Below, in pieces: positions 28,394 through 56,865 of a DNA stretch of 57,648 nucleotides. The first letter of the stretch is position 1. Each line of letters opens with the position of its first letter. The position numbers and the translations under genes were made by a program. The notes below the pieces were generated by a model, which saw only the letters and a program-made list of their open reading frames with translations, ran no database searches and was not told the origin of the DNA. The DNA is taken from contig JAHITY010000023.1 of assembly GCA_018817165.1 (NCBI GenBank), forward strand, positions 1 through 57,648. The letters run 5' to 3'. Origin of the DNA: Candidatus Omnitrophota bacterium. GTDB taxonomy: Bacteria; Omnitrophota; Gorgyraeia; B26-G9.

Positions 28394-28420
28394 TTATCTG
28401 ATTAGAGCTCAAGCAGCCCC
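28394..28420 (-). repeat. attC-like right arm remnant fused to a GGGG junction motif
   Basis: GGGGCT-GCTTGAG-CTCTAAT; core lost. Confidence 0.4.
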
Positions 28421-28428
28421 TTTTTTCT

Positions 28429-28677
28429 TTAATAAAACTTGCGATGTTTCTTACCTAGACCGATCAGTTCATGGGCATGATCAAAATTATTTGGGTATAA
28501 ATTTGGAGGAACCTTATGTTCAGACTTAAAATGTTCATATACTTTATAACGAGCACATTGCGTAAAACCACTAAGACAGAAGGTTATTTTTATTATTTTT
28601 TTTCGTTCTTCCATCATCCGTAATTGGTTATTAAAAAATGTACAAGTCCCGGCTATCGGACAAGCCATGATCTTCAC
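28429..28677 (-). CDS. Small Cys-rich hypothetical protein
   Basis: CP...C.FF...C....CARY...VP.NLYPN; AAGGA RBS. Confidence 0.7.
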   Translation of the reverse strand: MKIMACPIAGTCTFFNNQLRMMEERKKIIKITFCLSGFTQCARYKVYEHFKSEHKVPPNLYPNNFDHAHELIGLGKKHRKFY

Positions 28678-28684
28678 TCCTTAT

Positions 28685-28736
28685 TTATAATATTTGAACT
28701 CAAGCAACTTAGCTTACAGCTTATTGCTTACAGCTT
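28685..28736 (-). repeat. attC-like right arm plus heptamer repeats
   Basis: GCTTGAG-TTCAAAT-ATTATAA, next to agcttac-agcttat-tgcttac-agctttt. Confidence 0.5.
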
Positions 28737-29294
28737 TTCACTATTAACTTTATTCCCTTTTATTTCGATATAGGTAAAACGATACTGCGCTTTGCTAAGT
28801 TTGGTATAAAACTTTTCTTCCCGTATGGCCGCAACAGTAGGATCTACAATTTTAGAAAATCCTTCCCATATGCCAAACCAACCTAAAGGCATTACCACAA
28901 TACTTATAATATTTATCGCTAAATCATTAAACAACTTGTAATACGCGATCAGTGTTAAAAAAGTAAGAAAGCAAATACCACACAATACAAATATAACACC
29001 CTTTACCCGAATGCGTAAATTTTCTTTTTTCCGCATTAAAGCTCTATGCAGAAAATGACGCTTCAATCTCTTGGAAACTGTGTGCTCAGACTTTTTATCT
29101 TCAAGCAATTTAGGAGCACAAATTGTAACAATAAAATCTCCTTTACTTGTTTCTCTGTAACGCTGTTTGAGTTCAATAATAAAATCTTCAGAAAGCACTC
29201 TTTCACTCAAAGGCCTTGGATCGAAATCAGAAAAAATATCGTCCCAAGTATCGATAGCGATTACCACTTCTCTTGATGTTTTAATTTTACTCAT
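28728..29294 (-). CDS. Hypothetical membrane protein
   Basis: D..DDIFSDFDPRP...R.LS.DF N-terminus; two TMs; W.GIWEG. Confidence 0.75.
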   Translation of the reverse strand: MSKIKTSREVVIAIDTWDDIFSDFDPRPLSERVLSEDFIIELKQRYRETSKGDFIVTICAPKLLEDKKSEHTVSKRLKRHFLHRALMRKKENLRIRVKGVIFVLCGICFLTFLTLIAYYKLFNDLAINIISIVVMPLGWFGIWEGFSKIVDPTVAAIREEKFYTKLSKAQYRFTYIEIKGNKVNSEKL

Positions 29295-29341
29295 TTACTA
29301 ATTTCCTTTTTAAAAACAAATTCCAAATCAATCTACTTATA

Positions 29342-29385
29342 TTATAACATTTGAACTCAAACAGAGCAATGCCCCGCATTATCCG
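29342..29385 (-). repeat. attC-like right arm plus shared central module
   Basis: TTTGAG-TTCAAAT-GTTATAA; adjacent gccccgcattatccg resembles gcacaacgttatccg at 41176. Confidence 0.55.
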
Positions 29386-29445
29386 ATTAACTCGTCTAAT
29401 TAAGCATTATGACACTGTATTTCACTTATGAAAATTTAACCACAC

Positions 29446-30018
29446 TTACTTTATAATATTTATTTCTTTCAATTTCCAAAAGCATTTTGCTGTCGCTTCA
29501 ATATCAGCTGATGCATTATGAGCTTCTTCAAAATCTTCACCAAATAATTTCATGTATAATTCTGATAATTTAGGCCATTTATTACCATAAAGCCCTGGAA
29601 TTTTACAGAAATTTGTAGTTGATTCCATTGTGCATACTAGCTTTCTGGAAAAAAGATTAGTTGTTATTTCTTTTCTAATCATTTCTGCCCCAATAATTTT
29701 TGAATCAAAATTAATATTATGAGCAACGAGAATATCCGAACTATTAATTTCCCCATTAAATTCATTTAATACCGCGCTCAAATCTTTCCCATCATTAATT
29801 GCTTTTTCTGTACTGATCCCATGAATCTTGGCTGCTTCCGCTGGAATAAGAAACCCCTCAGGTTTTATAATATAATCTTTAGTCCTAATTCGCTCGCCCT
29901 TTTCATTAAAAACAATCCAAGCTATTTGCACTAACCTTGGCCAATTATTTCCATCACTAATCGGTGCCTTCCAATTTCGCGGAAGACCAGATGTTTCAGT
30001 ATCAAAAAATAGAATCAT
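29446..30018 (-). CDS. DEDDh 3'-5' exonuclease (DnaQ-like)
   Basis: FFDTETSG, VAHNINFD, AHNASAD. Confidence 0.93.
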   Translation of the reverse strand: MILFFDTETSGLPRNWKAPISDGNNWPRLVQIAWIVFNEKGERIRTKDYIIKPEGFLIPAEAAKIHGISTEKAINDGKDLSAVLNEFNGEINSSDILVAHNINFDSKIIGAEMIRKEITTNLFSRKLVCTMESTTNFCKIPGLYGNKWPKLSELYMKLFGEDFEEAHNASADIEATAKCFWKLKEINIIK

Positions 30019-30122
30019 TTTATATTCCTTTTATTTTTTTCTTAAGGTTTAACTTAGACAGAAATTAGCACAAGCACAAGTATATAGAAAATGCTGTATG
30101 AAGGCTCCAGTTTTTAAACTCT

Positions 30123-30596
30123 TCAATCTTTTCCGTTTTCCTGGGCGGACCCTGTTATTTCAAACAGCCTCTGCTCTTTATCTTTAAAAGTTTTTGCTCC
30201 CGGATCAATTATTTTATCAAAACCGGTACCAAATGTATATCCAACCGCAACGATCTGCAAGACATAATCCCCGGGAACATATCCCGGAGATTCAATATTA
30301 ATATATTCCAGTAAATCAACCGGGCCTTCTGATTTTAAAACCTTTGAACCATCTAGTTTGATAATATAAACTTTTGCATTTTCAAAATCGTTAAATTCCC
30401 AATACGCTCCTTTTTCACCCATGAAATCTTTTTCAAAATCAGTAAATGTCACCATAAGCGCTTTATTCTTCCAGGCTTGCTTCAGCAAAGCCGAATCTTT
30501 CGCATTTGAGAATCCATGGGGAATTTCCGCCAATGCCCAGGAAGCAGCAGCGCAAATAGACATTATAACCAATAAAACTAGTACGTTTTTCTTCAC
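30123..30596 (-). CDS. Exported hypothetical protein
   Basis: Signal peptide; GTG start with AAGGAG RBS. Confidence 0.65.
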   Translation of the reverse strand: MKKNVLVLLVIMSICAAASWALAEIPHGFSNAKDSALLKQAWKNKALMVTFTDFEKDFMGEKGAYWEFNDFENAKVYIIKLDGSKVLKSEGPVDLLEYINIESPGYVPGDYVLQIVAVGYTFGTGFDKIIDPGAKTFKDKEQRLFEITGSAQENGKD

Positions 30597-34767: not shown

Positions 34768-34804
34768 TCCCAACGTTTGAGCTTTTATCCTGAGGACTTG
34801 CCCC
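34768..34804 (-). repeat. Collapsed spacer: GGGG junction, REP remnant and attC right arm
   Basis: GGGGCAAGTC-CTCAGGATAAA-AG-CTCAAAC-GTTGGGA. Confidence 0.6.
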
Positions 34805-37260: not shown

Positions 37261-37354
37261 CAGATAAACTTATAGCGTTAAGCGTTTCGGAAAATGTCCC
37301 TTAAAAGCTCTAGTTATTTAATTCGTCAATTTTTCCGTTTTCCGGGTCTGAGCC
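37261..37354. repeat. Spacer module shared with 53051-53088 and 39630-39654
   Basis: gataaacttatagcgttaagcgtttcggaaaatgtc; ends ggtctgagcc 2 nt from the stop codon. Confidence 0.6.
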
Positions 37355-37356
37355 TA

Positions 37357-38154
37357 TTATTCCTCCTTCATCATATCCTTCATCATGTTGCCCATGGAAA
37401 ATCCCTTTTTTTCTACCTGTACTTTTGCCGCGTCGAATTTGTCGTCCGTAATCCCTGTATTAACTATCAGCGACTTGACGATAACAGTAAACATAAGTTT
37501 ACCATTCATATACGTGGTTGTTTTATACGGCATCTCCCAATCACCTTTAATTTTTTTATAATCGGAAAATTCCGTGATTATAATTTCTTTTTTTGAGCCT
37601 TTTCCCTGTATACGCATGGGCACAAGATTTTTCTCAGTCAACCATATAGTATTAAAAGGCGCATCCTTTTGCTCTGGGATTTCCACAACATAGCACTCCC
37701 GTCCTCCGACGTTTTCTTTGCCTTTAATCGTTGCTTTGTCTGAAATAAAATCCCACCAGTTTTTATCTTTTTGTTGTTCCAAGCTCTCTTTTGGGAGAAG
37801 TTTTTTCTTGCCCATCATAGACGATATCATCCATGTATCTTTTCCGTCAAAAATGATCGTGTTCTTCATCGGCCCCATACTCTCCGGCATGCCGGGCATA
37901 TCGATTATACTCTCACTGCGGAATTTTTTACCCTTTTGGAGAGATGTCATCTTCACAATCATATCACCATCCGGCGTAATCGTAGTCATCTCCTGAGTGA
38001 TATTGATGTCCTTAATATCATTGAGAAACTTATCTTGATTAGCCTTTATCTGCTGCAACACTTCCGGCCACTGTACCGCGAAGCCTAGTCCCGACACAAT
38101 CATTATTATCAACATTGCCATAATACCTGTCACCAACACCTTACTTTTCCACAT
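37357..38154 (-). CDS. LolA-like outer-membrane lipoprotein-sorting family protein
   Basis: Signal peptide after ATG 38154 (GGAGG RBS); G.E.VGGR.CYV, YKKI.G.W.P, N.GI.DD.F. Confidence 0.75.
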   Translation of the reverse strand: MWKSKVLVTGIMAMLIIMIVSGLGFAVQWPEVLQQIKANQDKFLNDIKDINITQEMTTITPDGDMIVKMTSLQKGKKFRSESIIDMPGMPESMGPMKNTIIFDGKDTWMISSMMGKKKLLPKESLEQQKDKNWWDFISDKATIKGKENVGGRECYVVEIPEQKDAPFNTIWLTEKNLVPMRIQGKGSKKEIIITEFSDYKKIKGDWEMPYKTTTYMNGKLMFTVIVKSLIVNTGITDDKFDAAKVQVEKKGFSMGNMMKDMMKEE

Positions 38155-38236
38155 ATTGCCTCCTTTGCAAGTTACACTAGAGTACACCCCTAGTGTGGAC
38201 TCTTCATCTTTCAGCCAATTTTTAATACCTTGCGAT

Positions 38237-38308
38237 CGTTTCTTCATCGAACACGTCCTTCGGATATTGTACCCGATTTTTGGTGTCCGTCAAGTCCGGG
38301 CTAGCTCA
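38237..38308 (-). mobile_element. IS3-family left-end remnant (IRL, promoter and first orfA codons)
   Basis: TGAGCTAGCCCGGACTTGACGGACA is 20/25 identical to the IS3 IR at 57509; contains TTGACG-16-TACAAT and ATGAAGAAACG. Confidence 0.7.
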
Positions 38309-38391
38309 TTATGTCACTCTATTTCCCTTTTTAGTTTTCGGCGCATGAACCTATTATTCTACTTTTAAATCTAGCCCAGCTATTCTTCAAT

Positions 38392-39429: not shown

Positions 39430-39778
39430 TCCTAGCGTTTGAGCTTTTACCCTGAGCACTTATAGTCAGCCTAGCCAATAGCCAATGAAACATAGTTCAT
39501 CCAGTGTAAAATTCACAGTCAAAAAGTTTCAATTAAACCCGATCACAGCTTTTTTATTTTTACTATTCACAATTAGCCATAAGCTATTGACTGTTTTCTT
39601 AAGCAAATTTTATGTTTTACCAACAAATCAGCGTTAAGCGTTTAGAAAAATGTCCAGATTCTCCTCTAGAAAAACATCGAGACAAGCCAGAGTTGGCCCT
39701 GTTTTCGTACGCTATAGCGGAAAGGAAACGCCCCGCGTTATCTGATTGCCTATGTTTTCAGTTTTCAGTGCCTGCCCC
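39430..39778 (-). repeat. Long mosaic spacer (attC-like arms, REP remnant, heptamers, GGGG junction)
   Basis: Right arm at 39430-39444; left-arm module cttaagcaaattttatg at 39598-39614; 39709-39778 is homologous to 55069-55139. Confidence 0.7.
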
Positions 39779-39783: not shown

Positions 39784-40200
39784 TTATTCTTTACGATAAA
39801 TTGTTCCAGTTTCAGGGTCTATCACTAAATCTACTGTTTTCACACCGGGAGGAGGAGTTGTTAAATTAGCTAAGTTAAGGCCTCCTGTAAAATTTCCTTT
39901 CACAGCATGAACTTCTGACCATTTATTATCCTTTTTACCCAGGCTCTGTTTATTATCATCGTCTGGGAATACATCAACATTATCAAAGAAAAATTCACCT
40001 TTTTCATTTGGATCACTAAGCAAAACTTCAAAAATACGAAAATTAGTTCCTGGAAAATTTCGTTGCAATCTAAACCTATGGCTGTCATCTCCTAATGAAA
40101 AATCAGTATTAACAAAATATATTCCTCTACCCAGAGCTGCCGACTTTACTCCTATAGTTCCATTAACATCAAGAGCATGTTCAGAATTATTTTCGCTCAT
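39784..40200 (-). CDS. Hypothetical protein
   Basis: 138 aa; GGAGG RBS; coupled to the lipase gene. Confidence 0.65.
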   Translation of the reverse strand: MSENNSEHALDVNGTIGVKSAALGRGIYFVNTDFSLGDDSHRFRLQRNFPGTNFRIFEVLLSDPNEKGEFFFDNVDVFPDDDNKQSLGKKDNKWSEVHAVKGNFTGGLNLANLTTPPPGVKTVDLVIDPETGTIYRKE

Positions 40201-41146: not shown

Positions 41147-41215
41147 ATCTAACTTTGAGCTCAGGCTGAGGAAACGCACAACGTTATCCGGTTTTCCTGA
41201 AGCGAATTTTTATGT
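41147..41215 (-). repeat. Near-complete 69-bp attC site
   Basis: ACATAAA(R'', AAC>AAA)-AATTCG-CT[T]CAGG(L'')...CCTGAG(L')-CTCAAA-GTTAGAT(R'). L''/L' pair with one extrahelical base; the site starts 2 nt after the stop codon. Confidence 0.75.
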
Positions 41216-41217
41216 TT

Positions 41218-42027: not shown

Positions 42028-42180
42028 AATTAGTTAATATCCTTTCATATTCACATAAAAAATAATATTAGATCATCCAGTTTGCTGAAAAATCCACATA
42101 ATCTCTCAGCATTTATATCCCTTTCCCCCATCCCGTAAGGGGAACTTAATGTTTTACCAAAAACAAAACCGTTAACTTTT

Positions 42181-43058: not shown

Positions 43059-43118
43059 ATCGCAACCTCACCATCCGAAACATAATATTCAACTTTAAAC
43101 TATTTAGCATAGCTACCC

Positions 43119-43176
43119 CGTTTCTTCATCGAACACCTCCTTCGGGTATTGTGTCCGTCAAGTCCGGGCTAGCTCA
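43119..43176 (-). mobile_element. Second IS3-family left-end remnant
   Basis: Same IR and ATGAAGAAACG as 38237-38308, with an internal deletion; supplies the stop codon of the DUF3592 gene. Confidence 0.7.
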
Positions 43177-43999: not shown

Positions 44000-44106
44000 T
44001 TTCTCCCCTTTCAATATTTTCTATTACTATTATTCACTAAAATTTTTCAATAGTTCAGACCTGCCCCCATTGTTTTTGTTTCCCAATAAAAGTATTATCT
44101 CACTAC

Positions 44107-44853: not shown

Positions 44854-46183
44854 TTTTCACTCTCCTTTTTTCGCGGATATTATTGCGTAAATTATTTTTA
44901 AAATTATCCCTGCGCCAAGCAGTAAATTCCTTACTGTATAACTTAACTCCCAAATTTCTAAAACCAGATGTTAATTCATCGGCAGTCATATTATTTGGCT
45001 TAAAGTTCAAATCAAACAAAGTACATTTCCGCCATTCTTTATCCTCAATTATTCTGTTCTCTTTTTTCAAACGCGCATACAAAGGAGTACCGGGAAAGGC
45101 AGTCATAATTGTTATCTGCACTTCATATAATCCTGATTCTTTTACAAAATCAAAAATTTGATCAAATATTTCCGGACCATGACCATCTAAGCCTATAACA
45201 AAACAGCCGTTCACAGTTATCCCATGTGATTGGATTATTTTTATCGCATCCTTATATTTACTTAATCTTTTAAATTTCCAATCCGATCGGGTTTCAAGCC
45301 CTTTTAACCCTGTTAATACTGGGCTTTCAAATCCAATCAAAACCTGAGCGCAACCACTTTCCCGCATAAGGTCCAATAACTCCTCATCCTCACTAACCGA
45401 AAGATCTGTTTCTGTAAACCACTTAATATTCTTATCCTTTAATTTCACAAGCAGTTCTTTCCAATAAGCTTTGTCTACAATACTATTATCATCCGCAAAT
45501 TCAATAAAGGGATATTTCCAGATATCGAGTATTTTGTCAATCTCCTTAATAACCTTATATATCGGCTTTTGCTTATATTTACTGGTTAAAATAACAGAGC
45601 TGGCACAAAATTCGCATTTATGCGGACAACCTCTGCTGGTTTGCACAGTAAGCCGATTATATTTAGAAATATCCAACAGTTCAAAAGCAGGCATTGGCGC
45701 ATCAGCTAAATCAAATGAACCAGTCAAAGATCCATAATTTTGCTTAAGCTCCCCTTTTTCACAGTCTTTAAGCACCTGATTCCAGACCAGCTCTCCTTCC
45801 CCAATAATCACAGAGTCACAATACTTGATTGCCTCTTCAGGCAGACAGCTCACATGCGGACCGCCAATAACAACTGGAATCCCTTTTTCCTTATACCTAG
45901 CGCCAAGCTCATACGCTTCATCTATTTGAGCGCTATAGCTTGAAATAGCCACTAAATCAAAACCATTCGGAATCTCATCGATCTCTTTTAAATTAGGGAT
46001 TTCAATATACTCTATTTTATGTTCTTTAGGAGTCATTCCCGCAAGCGTTAACAATCCAAGACTAGGTAAAGAGGCGATTGTTTTACTTCTTTCCACAAAA
46101 CCAGGTAAGGTTAAACCCAGCCTCAAAAGCTCCTCATCACAAGCACGAATACCGCTCATTGCTAAAAGTCCGATTTTCATCAA
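44840..46183 (-). CDS. B12-binding domain radical SAM protein
   Basis: PSLGL.TLAG.TP, GGPHV, TSRGCPHKCEFC, F.DDN, PGTPLY. Confidence 0.93.
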   Translation of the reverse strand: MMKIGLLAMSGIRACDEELLRLGLTLPGFVERSKTIASLPSLGLLTLAGMTPKEHKIEYIEIPNLKEIDEIPNGFDLVAISSYSAQIDEAYELGARYKEKGIPVVIGGPHVSCLPEEAIKYCDSVIIGEGELVWNQVLKDCEKGELKQNYGSLTGSFDLADAPMPAFELLDISKYNRLTVQTSRGCPHKCEFCASSVILTSKYKQKPIYKVIKEIDKILDIWKYPFIEFADDNSIVDKAYWKELLVKLKDKNIKWFTETDLSVSEDEELLDLMRESGCAQVLIGFESPVLTGLKGLETRSDWKFKRLSKYKDAIKIIQSHGITVNGCFVIGLDGHGPEIFDQIFDFVKESGLYEVQITIMTAFPGTPLYARLKKENRIIEDKEWRKCTLFDLNFKPNNMTADELTSGFRNLGVKLYSKEFTAWRRDNFKNNLRNNIREKRRVKNGDS

Positions 46184-46581
46184 ATCTCCTTTTTAATATA
46201 ACCAAATGCCATTATAAATACAGCACAAGCAAATGATCCAGCCGGAATAAAAAATAAGTTCTCGAAAAATCTATTCCATATAGTCAAAAGACAAATCGTC
46301 GGCATAAAAACAGCAGCATTGATCATTGTATATGATCCGATTCTTTTATACTTCAAAGACAATTCTGCTGCATCAATACATAATCCATAAAGAATATTAG
46401 TCAACGATAAAGCCATAAAAGATAAATGTGCCAATCTTAAAAATCGCCTAGTTAAACCCGCATAACCACCCAGCCATTCCGATTTAAAAGCAAATAATCC
46501 TATCCACATGGCCATCAATATTCCAACAAACAACCAACTCCAACCAAATCTTATATTATTCAAACCTATCTTATTTTTCAT
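46180..46581 (-). CDS. Membrane protein (radical SAM operon)
   Basis: GW.W...GY....RR.LRL.H; ATGA overlap with the radical SAM gene. Confidence 0.75.
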   Translation of the reverse strand: MKNKIGLNNIRFGWSWLFVGILMAMWIGLFAFKSEWLGGYAGLTRRFLRLAHLSFMALSLTNILYGLCIDAAELSLKYKRIGSYTMINAAVFMPTICLLTIWNRFFENLFFIPAGSFACAVFIMAFGYIKKEI

Positions 46582-46623
46582 TTTTTCCTTTTATTTTTTA
46601 CTTCATATATTCATTTTGACTTT

Positions 46624-49503
46624 TTAATGGTCAACTGCAATTATGCAGTACTTATTTTCGTGGTCTACACACAAAAAATAAAGTTTTCTCTCTGAACTCC
46701 CAATAAATTCCTTTAACTTGTAAACAGGATTGATTGCCTTTGTCTGTACAATCTTATACCCTTGCTCTAGGTCTTCTTCCAGCCAGACAATTCCCTCAGG
46801 GCCAAAACAAAGTATTCGCCCATCCTCTTGTTCACAAATAAAATTAAGATTTTCTACATACGTGTCCTTAATATCTAAAATGTTGATACTTTTCGATTCT
46901 ATATCACTTATTATTCGATAACCTTTATAAACCCTTTGATTCCGCTCTACGATGAGTTTCCCTTCCTTATTAATGAGTACTGGTCTTCCTGAATAAGGAA
47001 CTCTCAAATATGTATCCTTGTCTATTGTCTTCCAAACTCTGTCATAATTGTTGTAAAAATAAACACATCCTGAAGTATAATCAATAAGAGGAAGACTATA
47101 AATATTTCCAGGTTCTGTTAAAGTGCCAGTTACCCAAGCTTCGGATGGACTGGATAAACGTTCCAGTTTAATACCGCTTTCATCAGGAACAGCCAAAAAG
47201 ATATCCTGTATACAATTTTTATTAGCTAAAATCATCATCTGTTCCGTAGAATTTATTTTTATAGGACCTAAAATAGCTGGAGAATCTACTTTTACAGGCA
47301 AATCAGATAAGTCAATCCTTTTCTGTATAAAAAGAGGTCTTGAATCTTTGTATATTTCAACCTTGTTATTATCGCAAATCCATAAAATATCCTTAAATAA
47401 ACATATATTCATATTGCTTTTATTATTTTCCTTTTTTTGAGAGGCATTATCTACATAACATTTATCTGGAGCTATGCGCAATAAAAGCTCAAAGTATTTC
47501 TGAGCAAGTTCATGAAAATCCCTACCTTTCCATAAATTTTCTTCTTGTATAACATATGAAGATTCCTCAGACAAAATACAAATAGATCCATTTTTACCTG
47601 GAATTAGCTTTGTGTTTCTCTCATCAACAAATATAGGATATTGAAAGATATTTTTTCCTTCACAACAAAATATATTTCCCTTTTTTGTGTAGCTTTCTCT
47701 ATATAATTCATTCTTGTCTAATTCTTTTTTTTCATCAGGGCTTAACCAAGTTACTTTTTTATCTATGATTTTAAAATTATCTTTCTCAAAACCGGCCATA
47801 ATTCCTGAGCTGAAAAATGAATCGCTATTTGAAATGAACCATATACGTCCCTTTGAGTCCATAACAGCTTTATTGCTTGCTGGTAACAGTTTAATAGGAG
47901 GTTGCGAATGCTCATTAAAATTACTTTTATAAACCCAAAATTGTTTATTTTGATGTTTTGAATAGTCATTGTAATAATCCTTCCTAAGGAAATATATTCG
48001 TCCGTTCTTATCGCTTCCGATGCATTGCTCCATTGATTTCATAATCAAGCTTTTATCGAGCCATACGAGCGTTCCTTCTTCTATTCGTGCCAAGCCGTTT
48101 TGTGGAAGGAAAAGTACTATTCTACCCATTTCATCTCTCATAAAACGAATATTGTACCCATAATTGCCAATAGATTTATCAAAAGAGTAAACTTCATATA
48201 AATGTCCGTCATTTTTAAGATGGAAAATTCCACCCAGAGAATTTCCTGTATCATTTTCAATATATCTCAAAAGTAAATAGACTCCAGCAGCTCCTTGGTT
48301 TTCGAGAACACGCATTCCACTTATCCATCTTCCATCAAAATATTGATATCCCTGAGAAAGAAGATCTCCAATTCTTCGAATAGAGTAAGGAGACATCAAG
48401 CCTGTTATGCTGTCTATTTCATTTATAGCTCTCTCAATTTGATCAGTGGTTTTATTCAGAGTTTCATTTAATTTTCTTGTTTTATCTTCATCGTTTATTT
48501 CATTATTAAAATAATCTTCATTCTGCATAGAATGCATAACTGAGATTAAGGAGTGCTCTAATCTTTCCAGATGTATGTATTGAGAGGGAATTTTTCTCAG
48601 CTCCTGAGATATATCTCTGAAATATTTCTTGTCATAGACTGAAACTTTTTTTAATAATGGAACTAATTTATCAATATCTTTATTTTTGGCATATTCTATA
48701 ATATTATTCAGATCCTCTTCTTTTGGTTTACTATCATATTTTTCATTTAAAAAAGCGATCTTTGAACCAATAACAATCCATCGACCATCTTGACAATGAA
48801 GCGCTACTTGCATATTACTCAATGGAAAGTTTTTGTTTTCAATCTTATTGATTGCACCTTCCTTTCCATTGATTATATAAATAATGTAATCTTTATCTAT
48901 CTTCCCCTGATTTTCTGGAAGAACAATTAAATCCTCTCCTGCAGGAATAATTGAAGAATGTCGGATAATCTCTTCAGAGATAATAGGTTCGCCTGCTTCT
49001 TTTCTTAATCCATCTGATGAGTTAAAAAACCACTGGCCACCCATATTATAAGCAGAGCTATATTTAATGCCTTTAGGTATATTAATATTTTTTGTTTTAT
49101 TATTCTTTACAATTACACCTTCTTGCATTTTTCCACCAACAATAACAAGTTCCTCTTCTTTTCCCCACCCTATGACCTCTCCATCGATCATAAGATGGAA
49201 TTGGCCATTTAATTTAAGAAAACTTTTAAGAACACGATCAAAAGAGGCCCTATAATAATTATCGCCCTTATCCATAACAAAAATCGGAACATGTTCCGGT
49301 GAAGTATAAATCCTTGCGATATTACAAGGTAGTGGAACTAATCGTTTTTCTTCATTAAGATCCTTATAAATCTGTTCTCCAATAAGGTCATGTAATTCTA
49401 ATTCGTCTATAACTCCACTTGATTCATTTTTAGCTGCTATACTTTCTAAAGATAAACAAAGCATAATTGAAAAAAAGATTGTGATAAATAATTTAAATTT
49501 CAT
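46624..49503 (-). CDS. Large exported protein, probable beta-propeller
   Basis: Signal peptide; repeated D..GRI(W/Y)F blades; 959 aa. Confidence 0.7.
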   Translation of the reverse strand: MKFKLFITIFFSIMLCLSLESIAAKNESSGVIDELELHDLIGEQIYKDLNEEKRLVPLPCNIARIYTSPEHVPIFVMDKGDNYYRASFDRVLKSFLKLNGQFHLMIDGEVIGWGKEEELVIVGGKMQEGVIVKNNKTKNINIPKGIKYSSAYNMGGQWFFNSSDGLRKEAGEPIISEEIIRHSSIIPAGEDLIVLPENQGKIDKDYIIYIINGKEGAINKIENKNFPLSNMQVALHCQDGRWIVIGSKIAFLNEKYDSKPKEEDLNNIIEYAKNKDIDKLVPLLKKVSVYDKKYFRDISQELRKIPSQYIHLERLEHSLISVMHSMQNEDYFNNEINDEDKTRKLNETLNKTTDQIERAINEIDSITGLMSPYSIRRIGDLLSQGYQYFDGRWISGMRVLENQGAAGVYLLLRYIENDTGNSLGGIFHLKNDGHLYEVYSFDKSIGNYGYNIRFMRDEMGRIVLFLPQNGLARIEEGTLVWLDKSLIMKSMEQCIGSDKNGRIYFLRKDYYNDYSKHQNKQFWVYKSNFNEHSQPPIKLLPASNKAVMDSKGRIWFISNSDSFFSSGIMAGFEKDNFKIIDKKVTWLSPDEKKELDKNELYRESYTKKGNIFCCEGKNIFQYPIFVDERNTKLIPGKNGSICILSEESSYVIQEENLWKGRDFHELAQKYFELLLRIAPDKCYVDNASQKKENNKSNMNICLFKDILWICDNNKVEIYKDSRPLFIQKRIDLSDLPVKVDSPAILGPIKINSTEQMMILANKNCIQDIFLAVPDESGIKLERLSSPSEAWVTGTLTEPGNIYSLPLIDYTSGCVYFYNNYDRVWKTIDKDTYLRVPYSGRPVLINKEGKLIVERNQRVYKGYRIISDIESKSINILDIKDTYVENLNFICEQEDGRILCFGPEGIVWLEEDLEQGYKIVQTKAINPVYKLKEFIGSSERKLYFLCVDHENKYCIIAVDH

Positions 49504-52079
49504 TTTTCCTCCTTAAATGCTTTATCTTCTTCTAATGCTTTTTCTGGCAAACTAATCAGATGTAAAATATTCTCTTTTTTTGAGCCGCTGGTCGTTGAAA
49601 TAAAAGCAAGATAACCTTTTCTGCTATAAAAAGATTTACTTATTTCACCTTGATATTTTTCTAAATAATAAATGTCAGCAATCTCATAATCCTTGAAGTC
49701 TGATTTTCTGTCGGCTTTCAAATGATCCATTCCAAAACTTGACCAAAGATAAACAGAACCGGGAGCATCTGAAAAAAGATAGGAAGAAGATGATGATGAA
49801 AATGGTATAACTATTTCATCGACTATTTCATTATTGCGACAGACAAAAAAAGTATTTGATTTTTTTCCTCTTATGTCATTAAGCCAAATATTTTGTGCTC
49901 CATCGCAAAGAATCGGCCAACCAGAGTCTTTTAAAGAACCTATAATTCCTTTCTCATTAACACATGTTGCTGCCTGACCAACAGAGTCGCACACTCCCAT
50001 AGACATGTTGTTTGTGGCAGGGATCCAAAGAGCCCCTGAAACATCTTTTATGCTGCTCTTCATATATACCTCTTCAGAAGTATGAGGAGCTTTTTCAAAA
50101 ACCATTTTTCCATCCTGGATATTACCAAAAAATGAACTTCCGCTATCATCTGCCAGTCCAAAATCTGTTATATAAACTTTTTCACCATTTCCTACTGTAT
50201 TGATATACCACGGTTCTCCTGTTCTGGCTCCTGCCTCCATAAGAGTTGATTTTGCATTAAACCATTTATCACTTATAAGAACGCTAAGTTTTCTTGCATC
50301 AAGAAGCCATATATTTCCGTTACTATCAGCAACTATTCCATTTACAAAACTGTAATAACACTCTTTCTCCGAAGGCATACTTGTAAAATGCTTTCTAGCA
50401 TCATCTCGATTTTTAAAAATAAGGTCTTTTAAATTTTCAGACTGAAAGACCTTATCCGGAGTAATATAAAAGTACAAGGTATCCATACAACATAAGATCC
50501 TTCCTTCCTTACCCGGGAGCATGTACTTGATCTTCCTGTTACGAAGAACTTCTGGAGCTAAATGCCAGGTTTTCCCATCATAAAATGAGAGCCCCCTTTC
50601 TTCTAAAATTGCCCAAATATTTCCATTGGAATCCACACAGAAACGTTCACTCTTCAAATCAAATGTTTCTTCTTTGAGGATTTTTCTATTATCTGCTTTT
50701 TCAGACTGATAAATCCCAGGTTTTCCTTCTTTTGTAAAGAAAACCATTCCTTCCTTCTTCATACCAATGACAGATGTAGTATTCATCTCAGGAATCTCAT
50801 CAATGAAAACTCCTTTTACAAAATCAAGTCTCCTTGGCTTAGAGCCATTATACCCCCCGATCCAAATGCTTTTACCATCAGGGCAAAGATAAGTCTTGGT
50901 CCATGCCCCAGATTCAATGAACTCCTTGCCAGAATGAAAAATCGGTTTATCTTGATAATTAAGAACAAGCAAACCATCCTCTACTTTTTCTCCTTTTTTA
51001 AGAACATTTTCAACTTTAAAAAAGCTTATCCCCGTTTGATTATCTATATGCAAACGTCTTATTTTTTCAATATTAAGGTCTCCAAATTGAGTAAAAGAAT
51101 CCTTTCCTGATTGAGTAAAAGAATCCTTTCCGGAAAGTTCTTCTAAAACCCACATAAGCTGCTCAAGAGCATTAGAATCATATGTCTCGTTTAAAGCCTT
51201 CTTAATATCATGCCTGACGTTTTCTCCAAGATTTAATATCTGTTGAGCAATATCTCTTCTAACCTCATCTGTTTCTGCAGATTTGAGAGATTCGAAAAGT
51301 CCAATAAAATCAACTTTTTTTGAAGCATTTTTGTAAGGAATAAAATCCATACTATCATAATCTTTTGTCGCCCACACCCCACCGTTAGAGGGAGTGATCT
51401 GTTCTATTTGAGTATTATAATCAATAATATGCTCCCACTTCTCATCACGCCACCTCCAGAGATCAAGAACATTACCTCGTGCAATATTTCCCCCATCATT
51501 GATCTCGGTAATTCCGACAGCCAATACTCCGAGTTTATCAGGCTCAAGATAAAGATAAACGTTATTATGATATGTCCTTTCAACTATTTTCTTAAAGCTC
51601 CATTTTTCACCATCAAAAATATGTACCCCGCTTGCTCCGATAAAAAAAAGATGCTTTCCAATTTGATAATTTGATTTACTCCTGAAATATTCATTATGTA
51701 TTGTATGATGAATCCATTCTTTACCATCATAACCGGACATTATTCGACCGTTATCTCTTAGAAACCAAATCCTTCCATTAGATTCAAACAATGCTGGTTC
51801 ACAATCATAAAGCTGCGGTTCCTTTTTATCAAATTGATTCATAATCACTTTTAGTGAAATATTTGGATCTTCTCTCATGCCGCCCATAGAACTCAATTGA
51901 TACCATATTCTATCATCAGGTCCGATATAAACTGAACTTAGCTGATGCGGGAGCATTTGCAGCATGCAATCATTTATATTAATTGGGCCTATATTGTGCG
52001 GATATTCATCTGTAGAGGAAAAACATGGTATTTCCAAAAATAGAAGAACTAAAAGAAAGAATAATAGTTTACTTTTCAT
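49500..52079 (-). CDS. Large exported beta-propeller protein with a HEAT-like insert
   Basis: Signal peptide; D..G.IW and YDGK.W blades; helical VRRDIAQQILNLG segment; ATGA overlap with the next gene. Confidence 0.7.
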   Translation of the reverse strand: MKSKLLFFLLVLLFLEIPCFSSTDEYPHNIGPININDCMLQMLPHQLSSVYIGPDDRIWYQLSSMGGMREDPNISLKVIMNQFDKKEPQLYDCEPALFESNGRIWFLRDNGRIMSGYDGKEWIHHTIHNEYFRSKSNYQIGKHLFFIGASGVHIFDGEKWSFKKIVERTYHNNVYLYLEPDKLGVLAVGITEINDGGNIARGNVLDLWRWRDEKWEHIIDYNTQIEQITPSNGGVWATKDYDSMDFIPYKNASKKVDFIGLFESLKSAETDEVRRDIAQQILNLGENVRHDIKKALNETYDSNALEQLMWVLEELSGKDSFTQSGKDSFTQFGDLNIEKIRRLHIDNQTGISFFKVENVLKKGEKVEDGLLVLNYQDKPIFHSGKEFIESGAWTKTYLCPDGKSIWIGGYNGSKPRRLDFVKGVFIDEIPEMNTTSVIGMKKEGMVFFTKEGKPGIYQSEKADNRKILKEETFDLKSERFCVDSNGNIWAILEERGLSFYDGKTWHLAPEVLRNRKIKYMLPGKEGRILCCMDTLYFYITPDKVFQSENLKDLIFKNRDDARKHFTSMPSEKECYYSFVNGIVADSNGNIWLLDARKLSVLISDKWFNAKSTLMEAGARTGEPWYINTVGNGEKVYITDFGLADDSGSSFFGNIQDGKMVFEKAPHTSEEVYMKSSIKDVSGALWIPATNNMSMGVCDSVGQAATCVNEKGIIGSLKDSGWPILCDGAQNIWLNDIRGKKSNTFFVCRNNEIVDEIVIPFSSSSSSYLFSDAPGSVYLWSSFGMDHLKADRKSDFKDYEIADIYYLEKYQGEISKSFYSRKGYLAFISTTSGSKKENILHLISLPEKALEEDKAFKEEK
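51087..51134. repeat. 24-bp in-frame tandem duplication (SGKDSFTQ x2)
   Basis: ttgagtaaaagaatcctttcc(t/g)ga twice. Confidence 0.85.
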
Positions 52080-52104
52080 AGAAAACCCCTGAATTTATTT
52101 TTTC

Positions 52105-52878
52105 TTAATTCACATCTAATTTAACTGGAATTTTATTAATTACATCAGCAAATATTTTTTTAAATGATTGCCAATCAAGAATATCACTATTTTTCTGGGA
52201 AGCAGTGTAAGAGAATACTATCTTTTCCTCAGTGACTCCCACCATTTTCATTATTACTGTCACAGTACTTTTTTCCTGCAATGATTTCCACAATCCTCGC
52301 CTCGCAATAAAACTTTTCACTTCAAGATACATTACTGTATCAATATTTTTTGGGATTACTGGCTTCATATCAATCGTTCTTAAGACTAGCGGACTTGGCT
52401 TTTCATCTTTTTCATCATCTTTGTTTAATTCTTTTAAAGTTTTTATATTGCCGTTAGCGTCTTTAACTCCCATATTCCCAAACAATAGTTTAAAAAATTC
52501 TTTACCCGAATCTTCATCGGAATCTATCCCCGTAGGATGTAAAAACTCTTTTATCGCGAGTATCGCTAACTGGTCACTTTCATTTTCAGAATCAAGTGAT
52601 TGAAATTCCTGACTATATCCTGCAATTTTATAACCTCTCTTGGTAAACTCTTCTTGTAGCATATTTTTTATATTTTCTTTTGACTCTTTGATCATTGCGG
52701 TTAGATTTTCTCTGGATATATCATAACCAACATCTAAAGTAACCTCAGTAACAATCGGCATAACATAAACTGAATTTACTGCTTGCGGATCGACAAAAAC
52801 ATCCGAACGAATATATGGAACCGTTGAACATCCTGCTAAAAATAACACAAGAAAAATAACTATTAATATTTTCTTCAT
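52105..52878 (-). CDS. Hypothetical lipoprotein
   Basis: Lipobox LAGC; AAGGA RBS. Confidence 0.75.
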   Translation of the reverse strand: MKKILIVIFLVLFLAGCSTVPYIRSDVFVDPQAVNSVYVMPIVTEVTLDVGYDISRENLTAMIKESKENIKNMLQEEFTKRGYKIAGYSQEFQSLDSENESDQLAILAIKEFLHPTGIDSDEDSGKEFFKLLFGNMGVKDANGNIKTLKELNKDDEKDEKPSPLVLRTIDMKPVIPKNIDTVMYLEVKSFIARRGLWKSLQEKSTVTVIMKMVGVTEEKIVFSYTASQKNSDILDWQSFKKIFADVINKIPVKLDVN

Positions 52879-52896: not shown

Positions 52897-53107
52897 CTAT
52901 AACGTTTAAGCTCAGGCTTTTTAGCTGATAGCCGATGGCTTATAGCTTATAGTTTTTTTACTATTGCCCATTAGTCATGAGCTATTGACTATTTTCTTAA
53001 GCAAATTTTATGATTTACCAACAAATCAGAGTTTAGCCCTTCGAAAAGCTCAGGATAAACTTATAGCGTTAAGCGTTTAGAAAATGTCAATAGTTCAGAC
53101 CTACCCC
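52897..53107 (-). repeat. Mosaic spacer: GGGG junction, REP half, left arm, heptamers, right arm
   Basis: GGGGTAGGTC...CATAAAATTTGCTTAAG...GCCTGAG-CTTAAAC-GTTATAG; REP-like cccttcgaaaagctcaggataaa at ~53037-53059. Confidence 0.75.
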
Positions 53108-53122
53108 AATTTACCTCTTATG

Positions 53123-53974: not shown

Positions 53975-54071
53975 TGAGCCTCCTTTTTCACTTTTCTCAT
54001 AGAGTTTTCCCTACTCATACATTAAATAGAACCGTCCCCTTTAGCTTCAATTAAAGGTATCTGGGCTTATT

Positions 54072-54977: not shown

Positions 54978-54993
54978 ATTTTCATCCCCCTAT

Positions 54994-55170
54994 TTCCAAC
55001 CCCTAAGCCTTCCCCCAATCACTAGTAGTGAGCGAAGTCGAACTATATCGAAGGGCAGGCAGCTTGTCACGCTATGGCGGGGAGGAAACGCACAGCGTTA
55101 TCCACTTGCCTGTGTTTTAAGTTTTCAGTGCCTGACCCCTTATCCTCCAAAAGCCTAAAATAGCACCGTC
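54994..55170 (-). repeat. Mosaic spacer with a REP inserted in the attC L' box
   Basis: GGGGTCAGGCAC...GGATAACGCTGTGCGTTTCC...GCTGCCTG|cccttcga...ttcgacttcgctcac...|AGGCTTAGGG-GTTGGAA. Confidence 0.7.
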
Positions 55171-55176
55171 AATTTT

Positions 55177-55680
55177 TTATTCTACTTTTAATAATTCTAT
55201 AGCACTATTAATCTGTTTTGCAGCTGCTTGAGTTTCTTTTTTTGTAAAATTTCCAGTAAGTTGCATTTCACCGATTGATAATTGTTCTCTGATTGCCGCA
55301 ATGAAAAGTATTTTCCCATTTAAAATAATTGCAAGCTGTCTATTAACATTTCTTCCTGTGATTTCTTTGACTTTAGCAGCCCCGGCTTCAGTAAATTTAA
55401 AATACAAAGCATAATTAGCTTTTTGAGCCTCATCTTTTTCACTGCTAAAAAAGAATTCTTCTGCTCTGGCAAATTTAATATCTGTTTCAGAAAGTTGACA
55501 TTCTTTATCTATAAAAACCTCTTTTTTACCCCATTCGTCTTCCATCATAACTTCTTCATTATTATCTTTTTTAGTGTCATCTGCAAATCTAAATTCCAAG
55601 ATATTGTTCCCTGAAAACACAAAAGGTTGCCATAAGCAGACAATGAACGCAATGCAAATAATAATTTTTAAAACTTTCAT
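55177..55680 (-). CDS. Stand-alone SecDF P1 head subdomain protein
   Basis: LEFR...F.FT.AGA.K...IT..N..RQLAI+LNG....A.IRE....G...ITG.FT..E...A..I. Confidence 0.85.
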   Translation of the reverse strand: MKVLKIIICIAFIVCLWQPFVFSGNNILEFRFADDTKKDNNEEVMMEDEWGKKEVFIDKECQLSETDIKFARAEEFFFSSEKDEAQKANYALYFKFTEAGAAKVKEITGRNVNRQLAIILNGKILFIAAIREQLSIGEMQLTGNFTKKETQAAAKQINSAIELLKVE

Positions 55681-55690
55681 TTTTCTCTCT

Positions 55691-55761
55691 CCCTAACTTC
55701 TGAGCTCAGGCAGCTTCTCCCGCTATGGCGGCAAGCAAACACACAGCATTATCCACTTGCC
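55691..55761 (-). repeat. attC-like right arm plus central modules
   Basis: GGATAATGCTGTGTG...CCGCCATAGCGGGAGAAGCT-GCCTGAG-CTCAGAA-GTTAGGG. Confidence 0.7.
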
Positions 55762-55778
55762 AATTAAGTATTATACCC

Positions 55779-56020
55779 TTCATTTCTTTTCATCAGCTAA
55801 AAGAAACGAAGCAAAGAAAGAGCCGCCCCACTGGAATTTTATGCGATGTTCTTCTTTTTGGGGTTCAGCAAGTAAGATGATTCCGGTGATTCACTCAGGC
55901 ACGCAAAACAGCGTGCCTTCACGCCAACTAAACATCCTGTCTAAGTGGCGCTGCGCCGTCCTGGCTCCGTACAAATCCCCTCCATCAAAGAACCTCAGCT
56001 GAAAAATTCCAAAGGGGAAA
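55779..56020. repeat. GC-richer non-coding MITE-like insert
   Basis: Begins ttcatttctttt...aaaagaaacgaagcaaagaaa; internal stem aggcacgc/gcgtgcct; ggaattt...ttcttt pairs with aaagaa...aaattcc. Confidence 0.45.
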
Positions 56021-56058
56021 CTTCCCTATTTATTTTTGTTCAATGTCAAGGTTTAACC

Positions 56059-56451
56059 CTATTGTTCTTCAACAACTTTCCAACCATCTAAGTCGCCAGG
56101 CAAATAAAGAACTTCCCTTAAGTAATATTCTATCGCTTTTTCCGCAGAATTAAATATTTTTTCTGTTTGCATTGTGATTTTATTTAGATCGTAAGGGCTC
56201 GCTGCGCGCGATCTATAAATATATTTGTTTTTATCAATTTTTTCTATTACAGTAGCGTCATCTATAGGTTCGCCATTCTTTTTTGAAATCCATTCGTGAG
56301 GGAACCATTTATATGTTTTTAAATATTCAATTATTTCATTTCTTAATTCTGTTATTGTTAACGGAGGGTGTGGCCAGATACCTTGATCTATTCGTTCTTC
56401 CATGTTTAGGTGTCCACCCTTTAATAGAAATATTTTCGTTTTTGATTCCAT
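56059..56451 (-). CDS. Hypothetical protein
   Basis: 130 aa; GTTATAG core upstream; ends LPGDLDGW. Confidence 0.7.
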   Translation of the reverse strand: MESKTKIFLLKGGHLNMEERIDQGIWPHPPLTITELRNEIIEYLKTYKWFPHEWISKKNGEPIDDATVIEKIDKNKYIYRSRAASPYDLNKITMQTEKIFNSAEKAIEYYLREVLYLPGDLDGWKVVEEQ

Positions 56452-56463
56452 TATTAATTTTTC

Positions 56464-56543
56464 CTATAACACTTAAGCTTTGACCATGAGTTTGTCGAAT
56501 GGCAAACAGCTTGTCCGCTATGGCGGAGAAGCAAATTTTATGG
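56464..56543 (-). repeat. attC-like site with a REP half inserted at L'
   Basis: CCATAA-AATTTG-CTTCTCCGCCATAGCGGACAAGCTGTTTG|ccattcgacaaactcatggtcaa|AG-CTTAAGT-GTTATAG. Confidence 0.65.
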
Positions 56544-56865
56544 TTTGCCAAAAATAGAACCGTCCCCTTTATTTCTTTTAGTTTTTTCACTATTTAAATA
56601 AATCAATTTATCAAACAACGTCCCCGCTCATTTCTTCTTTTTAGTATTTAAGATTTATTTTAATTTTTTCACACATAGTTCATAAAGTTTTAATTAAACC
56701 TAACAATAGCTTGTCTACTTTTTTTGCTATTGACCATTAGCCATCAGCTATTAACTGTTTTCTTAAGCAAATTTTATGGTTTACTAAAACCAACCCGTCC
56801 CTTTTAATTCTTTTAGTTTTTTCTCTATTTAAATAAATCAATTTATCAAACAACGTCCCCGCTCA
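56529..56865. repeat. Imperfect ~100-bp direct repeat (56529-56630 and 56765-56865)
   Basis: aagcaaattttatggttt...ctatttaaataaatcaatttatcaaacaacgtccccgctca twice. Confidence 0.85.

What the first reader, a model, noticed from the sequence alone, without database searches (positions are those of the whole stretch)
28413..56860. Recurring GGGG-junction motif joins genes to a shared spacer: a possible second cassette-making or cassette-moving system
Seen: on the minus strand, usually 0-40 nt after a stop codon, spacers start with a same-orientation G-run motif. Examples: GGGGCTGC 28420, GGGGCAAGTC 34804, GGCTCAGACC 37354, GGGGCAGGCAC 39778, GGGGTAGCT 43119, GGGGGCAGGTC 44068, GGGGTAGGTC 53107, GGGGACGGTTCTATTT 54039 and 56567, GGGGTCAGGCAC 55139, GGGTTAAACC 56059, GGGGACGTTGTTT 56625 and 56860. 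Homology between spacers stops at or within a few nt of this motif. In normal cassettes R'' follows the stop codon directly. Inference: the motif is the cut/join point of a separate enzyme, possibly an HUH/RAYT-type Y1 transposase (my recollection of similar motifs, unverified), that attaches genes to an attC-bearing module. How cassettes are created is an open question, so this could be a footprint of that process.
Basis: partly seen in the sequence, partly recalled or inferred. Interest (0 to 1): 0.85.

Follow-up and report, generated by a model that had tools for sequence, protein, structure and literature searches.

The report
Y1 transposase repeats in integron cassettes
The G-rich motif that recurs just after cassette genes is the outer end of short repeats belonging to a known class of tyrosine (HUH) transposases, unusually crowded and uniformly oriented inside an integron cassette array, with no evidence so far that they build cassettes.

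Summary
All 13 motifs sit exactly where stated. Nine of the 13 lie 0-40 nt after a stop codon. Homology between copies starts within -8..+4 nt of the first G in 31 of 39 hits.

The motif is not one thing. Ten of the 13 sites resemble the terminal inverted repeats that flank RAYT-like Y1/HUH transposase genes in this genome and its relatives: seven strongly, three moderately. One such gene, on contig C140 of this genome, is flanked by two inverted copies of the motif found at 39778 and 55139. Three sites (28420, 34804, 43119) do not fit.

The proteins carry Y1_Tnp plus a DnaA_C-like tail. The repeats do not fold and start with a G-run. Both features match the published TIRYT/"TIRtron" class, whose repeat consensus is GGGGWSAS.

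The cassette-making idea is not supported, but it is not excluded either. In the array the repeat heads are about 15 times denser than in the genome's other intergenic DNA. They are almost all in gene-sense orientation, here and in relatives' arrays. That bias is unexplained.

The parts
39756..39778 (-). solo TIR head, family of the C140 transposase; 5 nt after the stop of ORF 39784-40200
   Evidence: 1 mismatch in 23 to the family string. 0.94 identity to the C140 flanking repeat; only 0.0016 of 4489 null sites score as high.
55116..55139 (-). solo TIR head, same family; 37 nt after the stop of ORF 55177-55680
   Evidence: 16 of 16 identical to the C140 flanking repeat, null fraction 0.0009. 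Fits the published consensus exactly.
37335..37356 (-). solo TIR head; supplies the stop region of ORF 37357-38247
   Evidence: 19 of 20 identical to the inverted repeat flanking a transposase gene in same-genus genome G001 (L116). The paralog on C2 ends at its own stop 8 nt before the G-run.
44047..44068 (-). solo TIR head; no attC follows in this spacer
   Evidence: 0.82 identity to a relative's repeat (L135), null fraction 0.004. 3 mismatches in 22 to the copy upstream of the broken Y1 gene on C115.
53087..53108 (-). solo TIR head, same family as 44068
   Evidence: 2 mismatches in 22 to 44068. Only 0.71 identity to flanking repeats, null fraction 0.04.
54020..54039 (-). probable solo TIR head; no attC follows
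   Evidence: 0.70 identity to the repeat flanking a transposase gene in G019 (L143), null fraction 0.056. Family has 8 places at up to 3 mismatches.
56548..56567 (-). probable solo TIR head, about 20 nt before a degenerate attC 5' end
   Evidence: 0.75 identity to L143, null fraction 0.019. A weak attC model hit at 56543-56464 follows.
56602..56625 (-). TIR head that opens a repeated module of about 85 nt plus attC (second tandem copy)
   Evidence: Identical 24-mer at 6 places on C78, C133 and C140; 2 mismatches to the copy upstream of the Y1 gene on C79. 0.85 identity to L141.
56837..56860 (-). TIR head opening the same module (first tandem copy)
   Evidence: As for 56625.
56780..56802 (-). 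second, diverged head inside the module, just before the degenerate R''
   Evidence: 9 places, all on C78, C133 and C140, all on the gene strand.
56041..56060 (-). solo TIR head overlapping the stop codon of ORF 56059-56451
   Evidence: 17 of 20 identical to the repeat on both sides of a transposase gene in G011 (L123), null fraction 0.004.
   Evidence: 0.81 identity to the C103 transposase's flanking repeat.
30131..30152 (-). TIR copy read through by ORF 30123-30596
   Evidence: 0.85 identity to L116. The stop of the ORF lies after the copy.
38336..38351 (-). weak, diverged TIR head
   Evidence: 0.75 identity, null fraction 0.019. Member of repeat family D5.
28413..28420 (-). G-run next to the last, degenerate attC 3' arm; not a TIR head
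   Evidence: Best identity 0.60, null fraction 0.50. No other copy in the genome.
34795..34804 (-). G-run directly after a stop and before an attC 3' half; family unclear
   Evidence: Best identity 0.65, null fraction 0.17. The shared stretch with 39461-39436 starts 5 nt after the first G.
43111..43119 (-). G-run inside a repeated leader plus gene start; not a junction
   Evidence: Homology with 38237-38303, C73 and C66 starts 33 nt upstream of it. It forms the 3' arm of a long hairpin.
41147..41215 (-). best attC site of the array
   Evidence: 39.6 bits, E 2e-7, with the family attC model R1.
28685..28746 (-). attC site
   Evidence: 26.6 bits.
29342..29412 (-). attC site
   Evidence: 21.1 bits.
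52897..52958 (-). attC site (3' part of a long-loop attC)
   Evidence: 21.3 bits. The same long loop type occurs in relatives.
55776..56019 (-). MITE-like element of about 245 nt inserted in the spacer/attC after ORF 56059-56451
   Evidence: 88-95% identical copies on C19, C37, C130 (two), C133, C56 and others, and in G001 and G011.

Best explanation
These belong to RAYT-like Y1 (HUH) tyrosine transposase elements of the TIRYT/"TIRtron" kind.

Shown:
- A full element is a transposase gene of about 220-320 codons between two inverted copies of a 20-28-nt repeat, whose outer end starts with a G-run, often preceded by TAG, CAG or AAG.
- The copies in the window are solo repeats without a transposase gene. 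They lie in the only free DNA of a cassette, between the stop codon and the attC site, or in ORF-less spacers.
- Homology between spacers ends at the G-run because that is where the repeat ends and gene-specific DNA begins.

Inferred:
- The solos were put there by these transposases acting on single-stranded DNA, or are left over from full elements.
- The array tolerates or attracts them.
- In some cases they then spread together with a neighbouring degenerate attC, as the repeated module at 56452-56860 suggests.
For: 1. Contig C140 of this genome has a 313-aa ORF with the HUH triad and the downstream tyrosine motif (motif assignment from general knowledge of Y1 enzymes). It scores Y1_Tnp 57 bits and NCBIfam "REP-associated tyrosine transposase" 82.2 bits against a cut-off of 80. 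It is flanked by inverted copies of the motif of 39778/55139 (alignment score 62).

2. The genome has 17 Y1_Tnp places over the Pfam cut-off. Seven pass a strict flanking-repeat score. Four more (C126, C76, second C109, C86) show G-run heads on both sides by eye.

3. Relatives of the C140 protein were found in 37 of 41 genomes (E <= 1e-20). Of 29 loci fetched, 19 have flanking inverted repeats. Of the 26 scored loci in all, 21 have a run of three or more G within the first 15 nt.

4. Window sites were compared with 40 flanking-repeat copies, against 4489 intergenic G-runs as null. Seven sites score at null fraction <= 0.005 and three at 0.02-0.06.

5. The heads do not fold: z from -1.06 to +1.12 in 10 of 10. 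The proteins have a DnaA_C-like tail. Both are traits of published TIRYTs, whose repeats share the consensus GGGGWSAS (passages read in PMC3733652, and PMC6006769).

6. That literature also reports that such repeats lie mostly downstream of genes and can supply the stop codon (PMC3733652). Here the paralog on C2 ends at its own stop, and the window copy runs two codons on into the repeat's flank.
Against: - Three of the 13 sites do not match (28420, 34804, 43119). Three match only moderately (53107, 54039, 56567).
- Each family is small, 2-14 places at the mismatch levels used. Matches are therefore short, and some rest on repeats found only in other genomes.
- Only 55139 fits the published 8-nt consensus exactly. 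The others differ by one position or one missing base.
- The right-hand repeat of the C79 element lacks the G-run.
- The DnaA_C match is below Pfam's cut-off (19.5-26 bits against 31.5).
- Nothing shows that any of these transposases is active.
- The genome is a 143-contig assembly with 3.8% estimated contamination, so linkage of C140, C133 and C79 to the window rests on shared repeats.
- A plain "junk accumulates here" reading does not explain why heads in arrays are nearly all in gene-sense orientation while the rest of the genome shows no bias.
Confidence: 0.8

Rival explanations
1. One reading: the G-run is the cut/join point at which a Y1 transposase attaches genes to an attC-bearing module, or moves such modules. 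It would be a second system that makes or moves cassettes.
For: - The same head-plus-attC modules follow unrelated genes. The module opened by the 56625/56860 head occurs at 7 places on C78, C133 and C140, and in same-genus G001.
- The 39778 and 55139 spacers share about 84% over 70 nt, starting at the head.
- Heads are 15 times denser in the array than in other intergenic DNA: 8 in 4,412 nt against 47 in 407,715 nt.
- Orientation is 10 sense to 1 antisense in the window array and 9 to 0 in relatives' arrays.
- In several places a head stands where the 5' half of the attC should be (34804 here; L078 position 3611).
- In G001 one copy follows an attC loop directly.
Against: - Heads occur without any attC (44068, 54039; G001 second copy) and outside arrays (28 places in the rest of the genome).
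- On C75, three heads are antisense to the genes.
- The attC parts in the shared modules are degenerate: the R'' triplet is changed, the L'' core is missing, and model scores are weak or absent. They look decayed, not newly made.
- Independent insertion next to similar attCs, or duplication of a spacer, gives the same homology boundary.
- The paralog test does not discriminate.
- No junction or circle molecules were seen (contigs only).
Confidence: 0.1
2. The G-runs are parts of the attC sites themselves (L'' arm, or the spacer between L' and R'). The homology breaks are then ordinary IntI crossover points.
For: - At 55139 the G-run and the following bases can pair with a C-run downstream, with single-base bulges (reading).
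- The bases just before and after the 56625/56860 G-run resemble an L'-spacer-R' end with a GTT triplet. In G001 they directly follow an attC loop.
Against: - The attC model was built from 34 canonical sites (87.7% of cells paired). It places none of the 13 G-runs inside any of its 25 hits at E <= 10.
- The same motifs flank transposase genes on contigs without attC hits.
- Most heads have no pairing partner.
Confidence: 0.05
3. Chance or composition: the coding strand is G-rich, and the G-runs are unrelated (ribosome-binding sites, terminator stems).
For: - GC skew of about -0.2 on the plus strand.
- Three listed sites have no relatives.
- 10.6% of gene flanks elsewhere also hold a sense run of four G.
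Against: - 11 of 26 flanks in the window against 186 of 1750 elsewhere.
- Matches of 16-23 nt to transposase-flanking repeats.
- No hairpins.
Confidence: 0.03

Closest known systems
TIRtrons / TIRYT (TIR-associated tyrosine transposases) and their TIR repeat families; Di Nocera et al. 2013, PMC3733652 (passages read; figures and additional files not seen)
   Same: RAYT-like Y1 gene between terminal inverted repeats that are not palindromes. Repeats share a G-run consensus (GGGGWSAS). Solo, paired or clustered copies occur elsewhere in the genome. Several different transposase/repeat pairs exist in one genome.
   Different: Here most solo copies sit in an integron cassette array, nearly all in one orientation and often next to attC. 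The paper's passages say nothing about integrons. Many heads here have three G, or a one-base difference from the consensus.
TnpA_REP subclass 2.1 (Y1 HUH with C-terminal Bac_DnaA_C/HTH domain); Quentin et al. 2018, PMC6006769 (passages read)
   Same: Domain make-up of the 313-323-aa proteins on C140, C79 and C21 (Y1_Tnp plus a DnaA_C-like tail). No REP hairpins beside the gene. Same repeat consensus quoted.
   Different: Subclass membership was not tested by a tree. The 220-aa proteins (C103, C93, C109) lack the tail.
REP/RAYT and REPINs (GTAG-tagged palindromic repeats)
   Same: Transposase flanked by inverted copies of a dispersed repeat. Repeats lie after genes. A TAG-like tag at the head can serve as a stop codon (PMC3733652). 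The C140 protein reaches the NCBIfam RAYT cut-off.
   Different: No stem-loop. Copy numbers are 2-14 per family, not hundreds. Classic GTAG palindromes do exist elsewhere in this genome, but they are other sequences.
IS200/IS605 insertion sequences
   Same: Y1 HUH transposase fold family (Pfam Y1_Tnp). A single-strand mechanism is presumed.
   Different: The IS200 NCBIfam model scores only about 19 bits against a cut-off of 55. Ends are inverted repeats, not subterminal hairpins. No tnpB lies beside them (not searched systematically).
Elements known to live in integron arrays: group IIC-attC introns (abstract start of PMC7923331 in the listing), IS1111-attC and ISCR elements (recalled, from no call)
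   Same: Mobile DNA lodged at or beside attC sites in a fixed orientation. ISCR also uses an HUH enzyme and sits beside integrons.
   Different: Different enzymes and ends. None is a Y1 TIRYT. I found no paper linking RAYT/TIRYT repeats to cassette arrays (searches; the two 'attC' co-occurrences are letter strings).

Membership tests
TIRtron / TIRYT repeat | RAYT-like Y1 transposase gene flanked by terminal inverted repeats | tested here: met
   C140, C21, C93, C103, C34, C109 and C79 pass a strict score. C126, C76, the second C109 and C86 pass by eye. 19 of 29 relatives' loci also pass.
TIRtron / TIRYT repeat | repeat carries the G-run consensus (GGGGWSAS) near its outer end | tested here: met
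21 of 26 loci have a run of three or more G in the first 15 nt. By eye, exact consensus in several loci (e.g. C109, C34, L118, L120, L127).
TIRtron / TIRYT repeat | repeat is not a stem-loop | tested here: met
   10 of 10 heads fold no better than shuffles.
TIRtron / TIRYT repeat | HUH triad and catalytic tyrosine in the protein | tested here: met
   Both motifs can be read in the C140 translation. Y1_Tnp matches span 4-119 of 121 profile positions. Assignment of the residues is from general knowledge.
TIRtron / TIRYT repeat | C-terminal HTH / Bac_DnaA_C domain (subclass 2.1) | tested here: inconclusive
   19.5-26 bits against a cut-off of 31.5 in 3 of 6 proteins; none in the three shorter ones (172-223 aa).
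TIRtron / TIRYT repeat | window copies are members of the same repeat families as the gene-flanking copies | tested here: met
   7 of 13 strongly, 3 of 13 moderately, 3 of 13 not.
TIRtron / TIRYT repeat | mobilised by the transposase | not testable with these tools
   Only assembled contigs of two runs were available.
REP (GTAG palindromic repeat) | imperfect palindrome forming a stem-loop | tested here: not met
REP (GTAG palindromic repeat) | tens to hundreds of copies per genome | tested here: not met
   2-14 places per family. 47 head-like sites in all other intergenic DNA.
integron attC site | R''/L''...L'/R' arms with AAC/GTT, as scored by a covariance model of the family's own attCs | tested here: not met
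   0 of 13 G-runs fall within any of 25 model hits. IntegronFinder's own model was not available.
IS200/IS605 | IS200-type transposase, hairpin ends without inverted repeats | tested here: not met
   NF033573 scores about 19 bits against a cut-off of 55. Ends are inverted repeats.

The most novel reading that the evidence does not exclude
TIRYT-type Y1 transposases work on the same folded single strands as the integron integrase. They would place their repeat in a fixed orientation at the boundary between a gene's stop codon and the attC site. By inserting beside or into attC hairpins, or by carrying a repeat-plus-attC module to the 3' end of another gene, they would reshape cassettes and occasionally create new ones. 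The array-specific crowding, the uniform orientation across several genera, and the heads that stand in place of the attC 5' half would be footprints of this.
Probability: 0.12. Interest if true: 0.85.

Novelty: new member of a known kind. Interest (0 to 1): 0.5.

Why it matters
The finding was flagged as a possible second cassette-making system. It turns out to be a known kind of element, which removes most of the mystery: the junction motif is simply the end of a transposase-associated repeat.

One piece appears not to be in print in the library searched. Solo TIRYT repeats pile up inside integron cassette arrays at about 15 times the background density. They point the same way as the cassettes, in this genome and in arrays of related genera.

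Both systems handle single-stranded, structured DNA. A functional link is therefore conceivable, either as targeting of attC or as co-mobilisation, and it can be tested at the bench. If the link is only tolerance of junk DNA in arrays, the practical lesson concerns annotation. Such repeats blur attC detection, break assemblies, and can be mistaken for parts of attC.

Tried and rejected
1. My first working idea was that the G-run is the L'' arm of a variant attC with the stop codon inside R''. I dropped it for two reasons. The canonical attC of the family became clear. The same motif then turned up as an inverted pair around a transposase gene.

2. I considered the 56625/56860 motif as an L'-spacer-R' end and kept it only as a weak rival.

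3. Minimum-energy folds of whole spacers were uninformative.

4. Rfam gave one chance hit at E 0.61. No tRNA was found.

5. BLAST of the derived flanking repeats against the genome found only 3 places in the window array. It is too insensitive for 20-nt queries, so I replaced it with an anchored ungapped comparison with a null.

6. Replication-strand bias cannot explain the orientation. Solo heads outside arrays are 8 on the G-rich strand and 10 on the C-rich strand. There is also no bias with respect to the neighbouring genes: 7 after a stop against 11 after a start, and 6 co-oriented against 6 convergent.

7. I tested whether solo heads bring promoters to downstream cassettes. Transposase-proximal copies are followed by good -35/-10 pairs by eye. 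The scan of 37.1-57 kb gave 97 promoter-like sites against 81.9 +/- 9.4 in shuffles, and none of the listed sites lies at a solo head. Not supported.

8. Sequencing runs: two groundwater-metagenome runs hold the stretch, both only as assembled contigs. The joints reported have short sides (20-37 nt) and come from other copies of the repeats. No circle or excision junction can be claimed. Run X2 has little cover over about 46-52 kb, which I do not interpret.

9. The PDB sequence search with the C140 protein found no hit at E <= 0.01.

10. The IntI search in named genomes gave only 41-50% identical relatives, the best in a Candidatus Omnitrophota MAG. I did not use it further.

11. MEME and IntegronFinder were not available. 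Supplementary files and figures of the two key papers (lists and drawings of TIR sequences) were not seen and could refine the family assignment.

Full report
**What the region is.** The window is contig C78 of a 3.08-Mb, 143-contig assembly. From about 28.4 kb to its end, all large ORFs lie on the minus strand. Many are preceded by the 3' end of an attC site just before the ribosome-binding site. The genome has two full integron integrases, both at contig ends (407.7 and 403.1 bits against a cut-off of 265). The genes in the array are a mixed bag, about half without any Pfam family. The premise of a cassette array is sound.

**Defining the local attC.** I collected the conserved 3' arm in relatives (found in 15 of 17 same-family genomes) and extracted 39 sites with a recognisable 5' arm. 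I aligned 34 of them, leaving out one dubious and four very long ones. I then checked a hand-drawn R-box/L-box structure: 87.7% of cells pair, against 8-39% when partners are slid. From this I built covariance model R1.

It finds twenty weaker ones up to E 10. None of the 13 G-runs lies inside any of these 25 hits. The window's attCs are degenerate compared with the clean arrays of relatives.

**Checking the observation.** All 13 motifs are at the stated coordinates. Nine lie 0-40 nt after a stop, one lies at 49 nt, and three lie in one long ORF-less spacer.

A sense-strand run of four G within 60 nt after the stop occurs in 11 of 26 flanks here, against 2 of 26 antisense. Elsewhere it occurs in 186 of 1750 flanks (Fisher p = 4e-5). 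Twenty flanks on C140, C133 and C75 were set aside.

Site 43119 is the exception: there the homology starts 33 nt upstream, and the G-run is the 3' arm of a hairpin in a repeated leader plus gene start.

**What it is.** Contig C140 shares spacer repeats with the window. On it, the motif of 39778/55139 occurs twice in inverted orientation around a 313-codon ORF. That ORF is a Y1/HUH transposase:
- Y1_Tnp, 57 bits.
- NCBIfam REP-associated tyrosine transposase, 82.2 bits against a cut-off of 80.
- A weak DnaA_C-like tail.
- Both catalytic motifs can be read in the translation.

The genome holds 17 Y1_Tnp places. Printing their flanks shows that most are bracketed by inverted repeats whose outer ends begin with a G-run, each gene with its own variant.
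- The variant before the Y1 gene on C79 is the 56625/56860 motif.
- The variant before the broken gene on C115 is the 44068/53107 motif.

Relatives of the C140 protein occur in 37 of 41 genomes of the class. Of 29 loci fetched, 26 had enough flank, and 19 have clear inverted repeats by the strict score. Among them are near-exact counterparts of 37354 (G001), 56059 (G011) and 54039/56567 (G019).

An anchored comparison used 40 gene-flanking copies and a null of 4489 intergenic G-runs outside arrays.

**Placing it among known systems.** The heads do not form hairpins (10 of 10), and each family has only 2-14 places. They are therefore not classical REPs. Classical GTAG palindromes do exist elsewhere in this genome.

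They fit the TIRtron/TIRYT class. These are RAYT-like genes flanked by non-palindromic inverted repeats that share the consensus GGGGWSAS, with solo, paired or clustered copies elsewhere (PMC3733652, passages). The class was equated with TnpA_REP subclass 2.1, which carries a DnaA_C/HTH tail (PMC6006769, passages). The first paper also notes that such repeats lie mostly downstream of genes and can provide the stop codon.

The one paralog comparison I could make agrees. The C2 copy of ORF 37357-38247 is 79% identical up to its own stop. The window copy runs two codons further, into the repeat's flank.

**What remains odd.** Head-like sites (identity >= 0.8) number 8 in the 4,412 intergenic nt of the window array and 0 in the 3,547 nt of 1-28 kb. 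They number 47 in the 407,715 nt of other intergenic DNA, which makes them about 15-fold enriched in the array (Poisson 7e-8). The array was picked for the motif, so this is post hoc.

Orientation:
- At >= 0.75, ten intergenic heads in the array are on the gene strand and one is opposite. The opposite one is the end of a MITE.
- In ten array stretches from six relatives, all nine heads are on the strand of most genes.
- Outside arrays there is no bias with respect to GC skew or to neighbouring genes.
- On C75, three heads are antisense.

Several heads stand directly before a degenerate R'' (56567; L080 and L078 in relatives) or where the 5' half of an attC should be (34804; L078 position 3611). 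A module that runs from the 56625-type head through about 85 nt into an attC follows unrelated genes at seven places here and again in G001.

Against it:
- Heads occur without attC (44068, 54039; G001).
- The attC parts of the modules are decayed.
- No junction molecules were observed.

**Verdict.** The motif is real. The element is a known kind. Its crowding and one-way orientation in integron arrays seems unreported in the library searched and deserves a survey and a bench test. The claim of a cassette-making system is unproven.

Noticed in passing
Cassette-like structure or stray attC sites may reach into the apparently ordinary first half of the window.
   Followed up: no
window 55776-56019: A MITE-like element of about 245 nt with its own inverted ends sits in the spacer after ORF 56059-56451, apparently splitting an attC. 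There are many 77-95% identical copies in this genome, one in G001 and eight in G011. Contig depth there is about ten times that of the neighbouring bins.
   Followed up: partly
L001 1062-2363 and L002 1489-2784 (contigs C73 and C48): Both integron integrases are 431-433 aa long. The family model covers only the last ~315 residues, so each has an N-terminal extension of about 110 residues.
   Followed up: no
whole genome G000: Classical GTAG-tagged palindromic repeats are the most abundant 13-mers (28-39 copies), and other hairpin repeats reach about 20 copies. One of the latter directly follows the stop of the C2 paralog. The genome is rich in several repeat systems.
   Followed up: no
window 30123-30596 (-): This ORF reads through a transposase-repeat copy (30131-30152), so its last dozen codons are encoded by the repeat.
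   Followed up: no
window 38237-38310 and 43119-43176; also C73 122872-122974, C66 2797-2899, C57: A repeated leader of about 65-100 nt holds a promoter-like site (38293-38266) and the first codons of a gene. At 43119 only a 9-codon stump of that gene remains.
   Followed up: partly
window 42170-42201 (-): A 32-nt stump in which an attC R'' and its spacer are joined almost directly to an R'. It looks like an attC that has lost its whole middle.
   Followed up: no
ends of contigs C46, C47, C83, C107, C109, C118, C122, C126, C133, C142: The same transposase-repeat variant lies about 110-150 nt from many contig ends. These elements are a main cause of the fragmented assembly.
   Followed up: no
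window 44473-52878 (-): A six-gene block has almost no spacers: a B12-binding radical SAM enzyme, two proteins of 859 and 959 aa without clear families, and a lipoprotein. It sits as one unit between two attC-bearing spacers and may be a multi-gene cassette.
   Followed up: no
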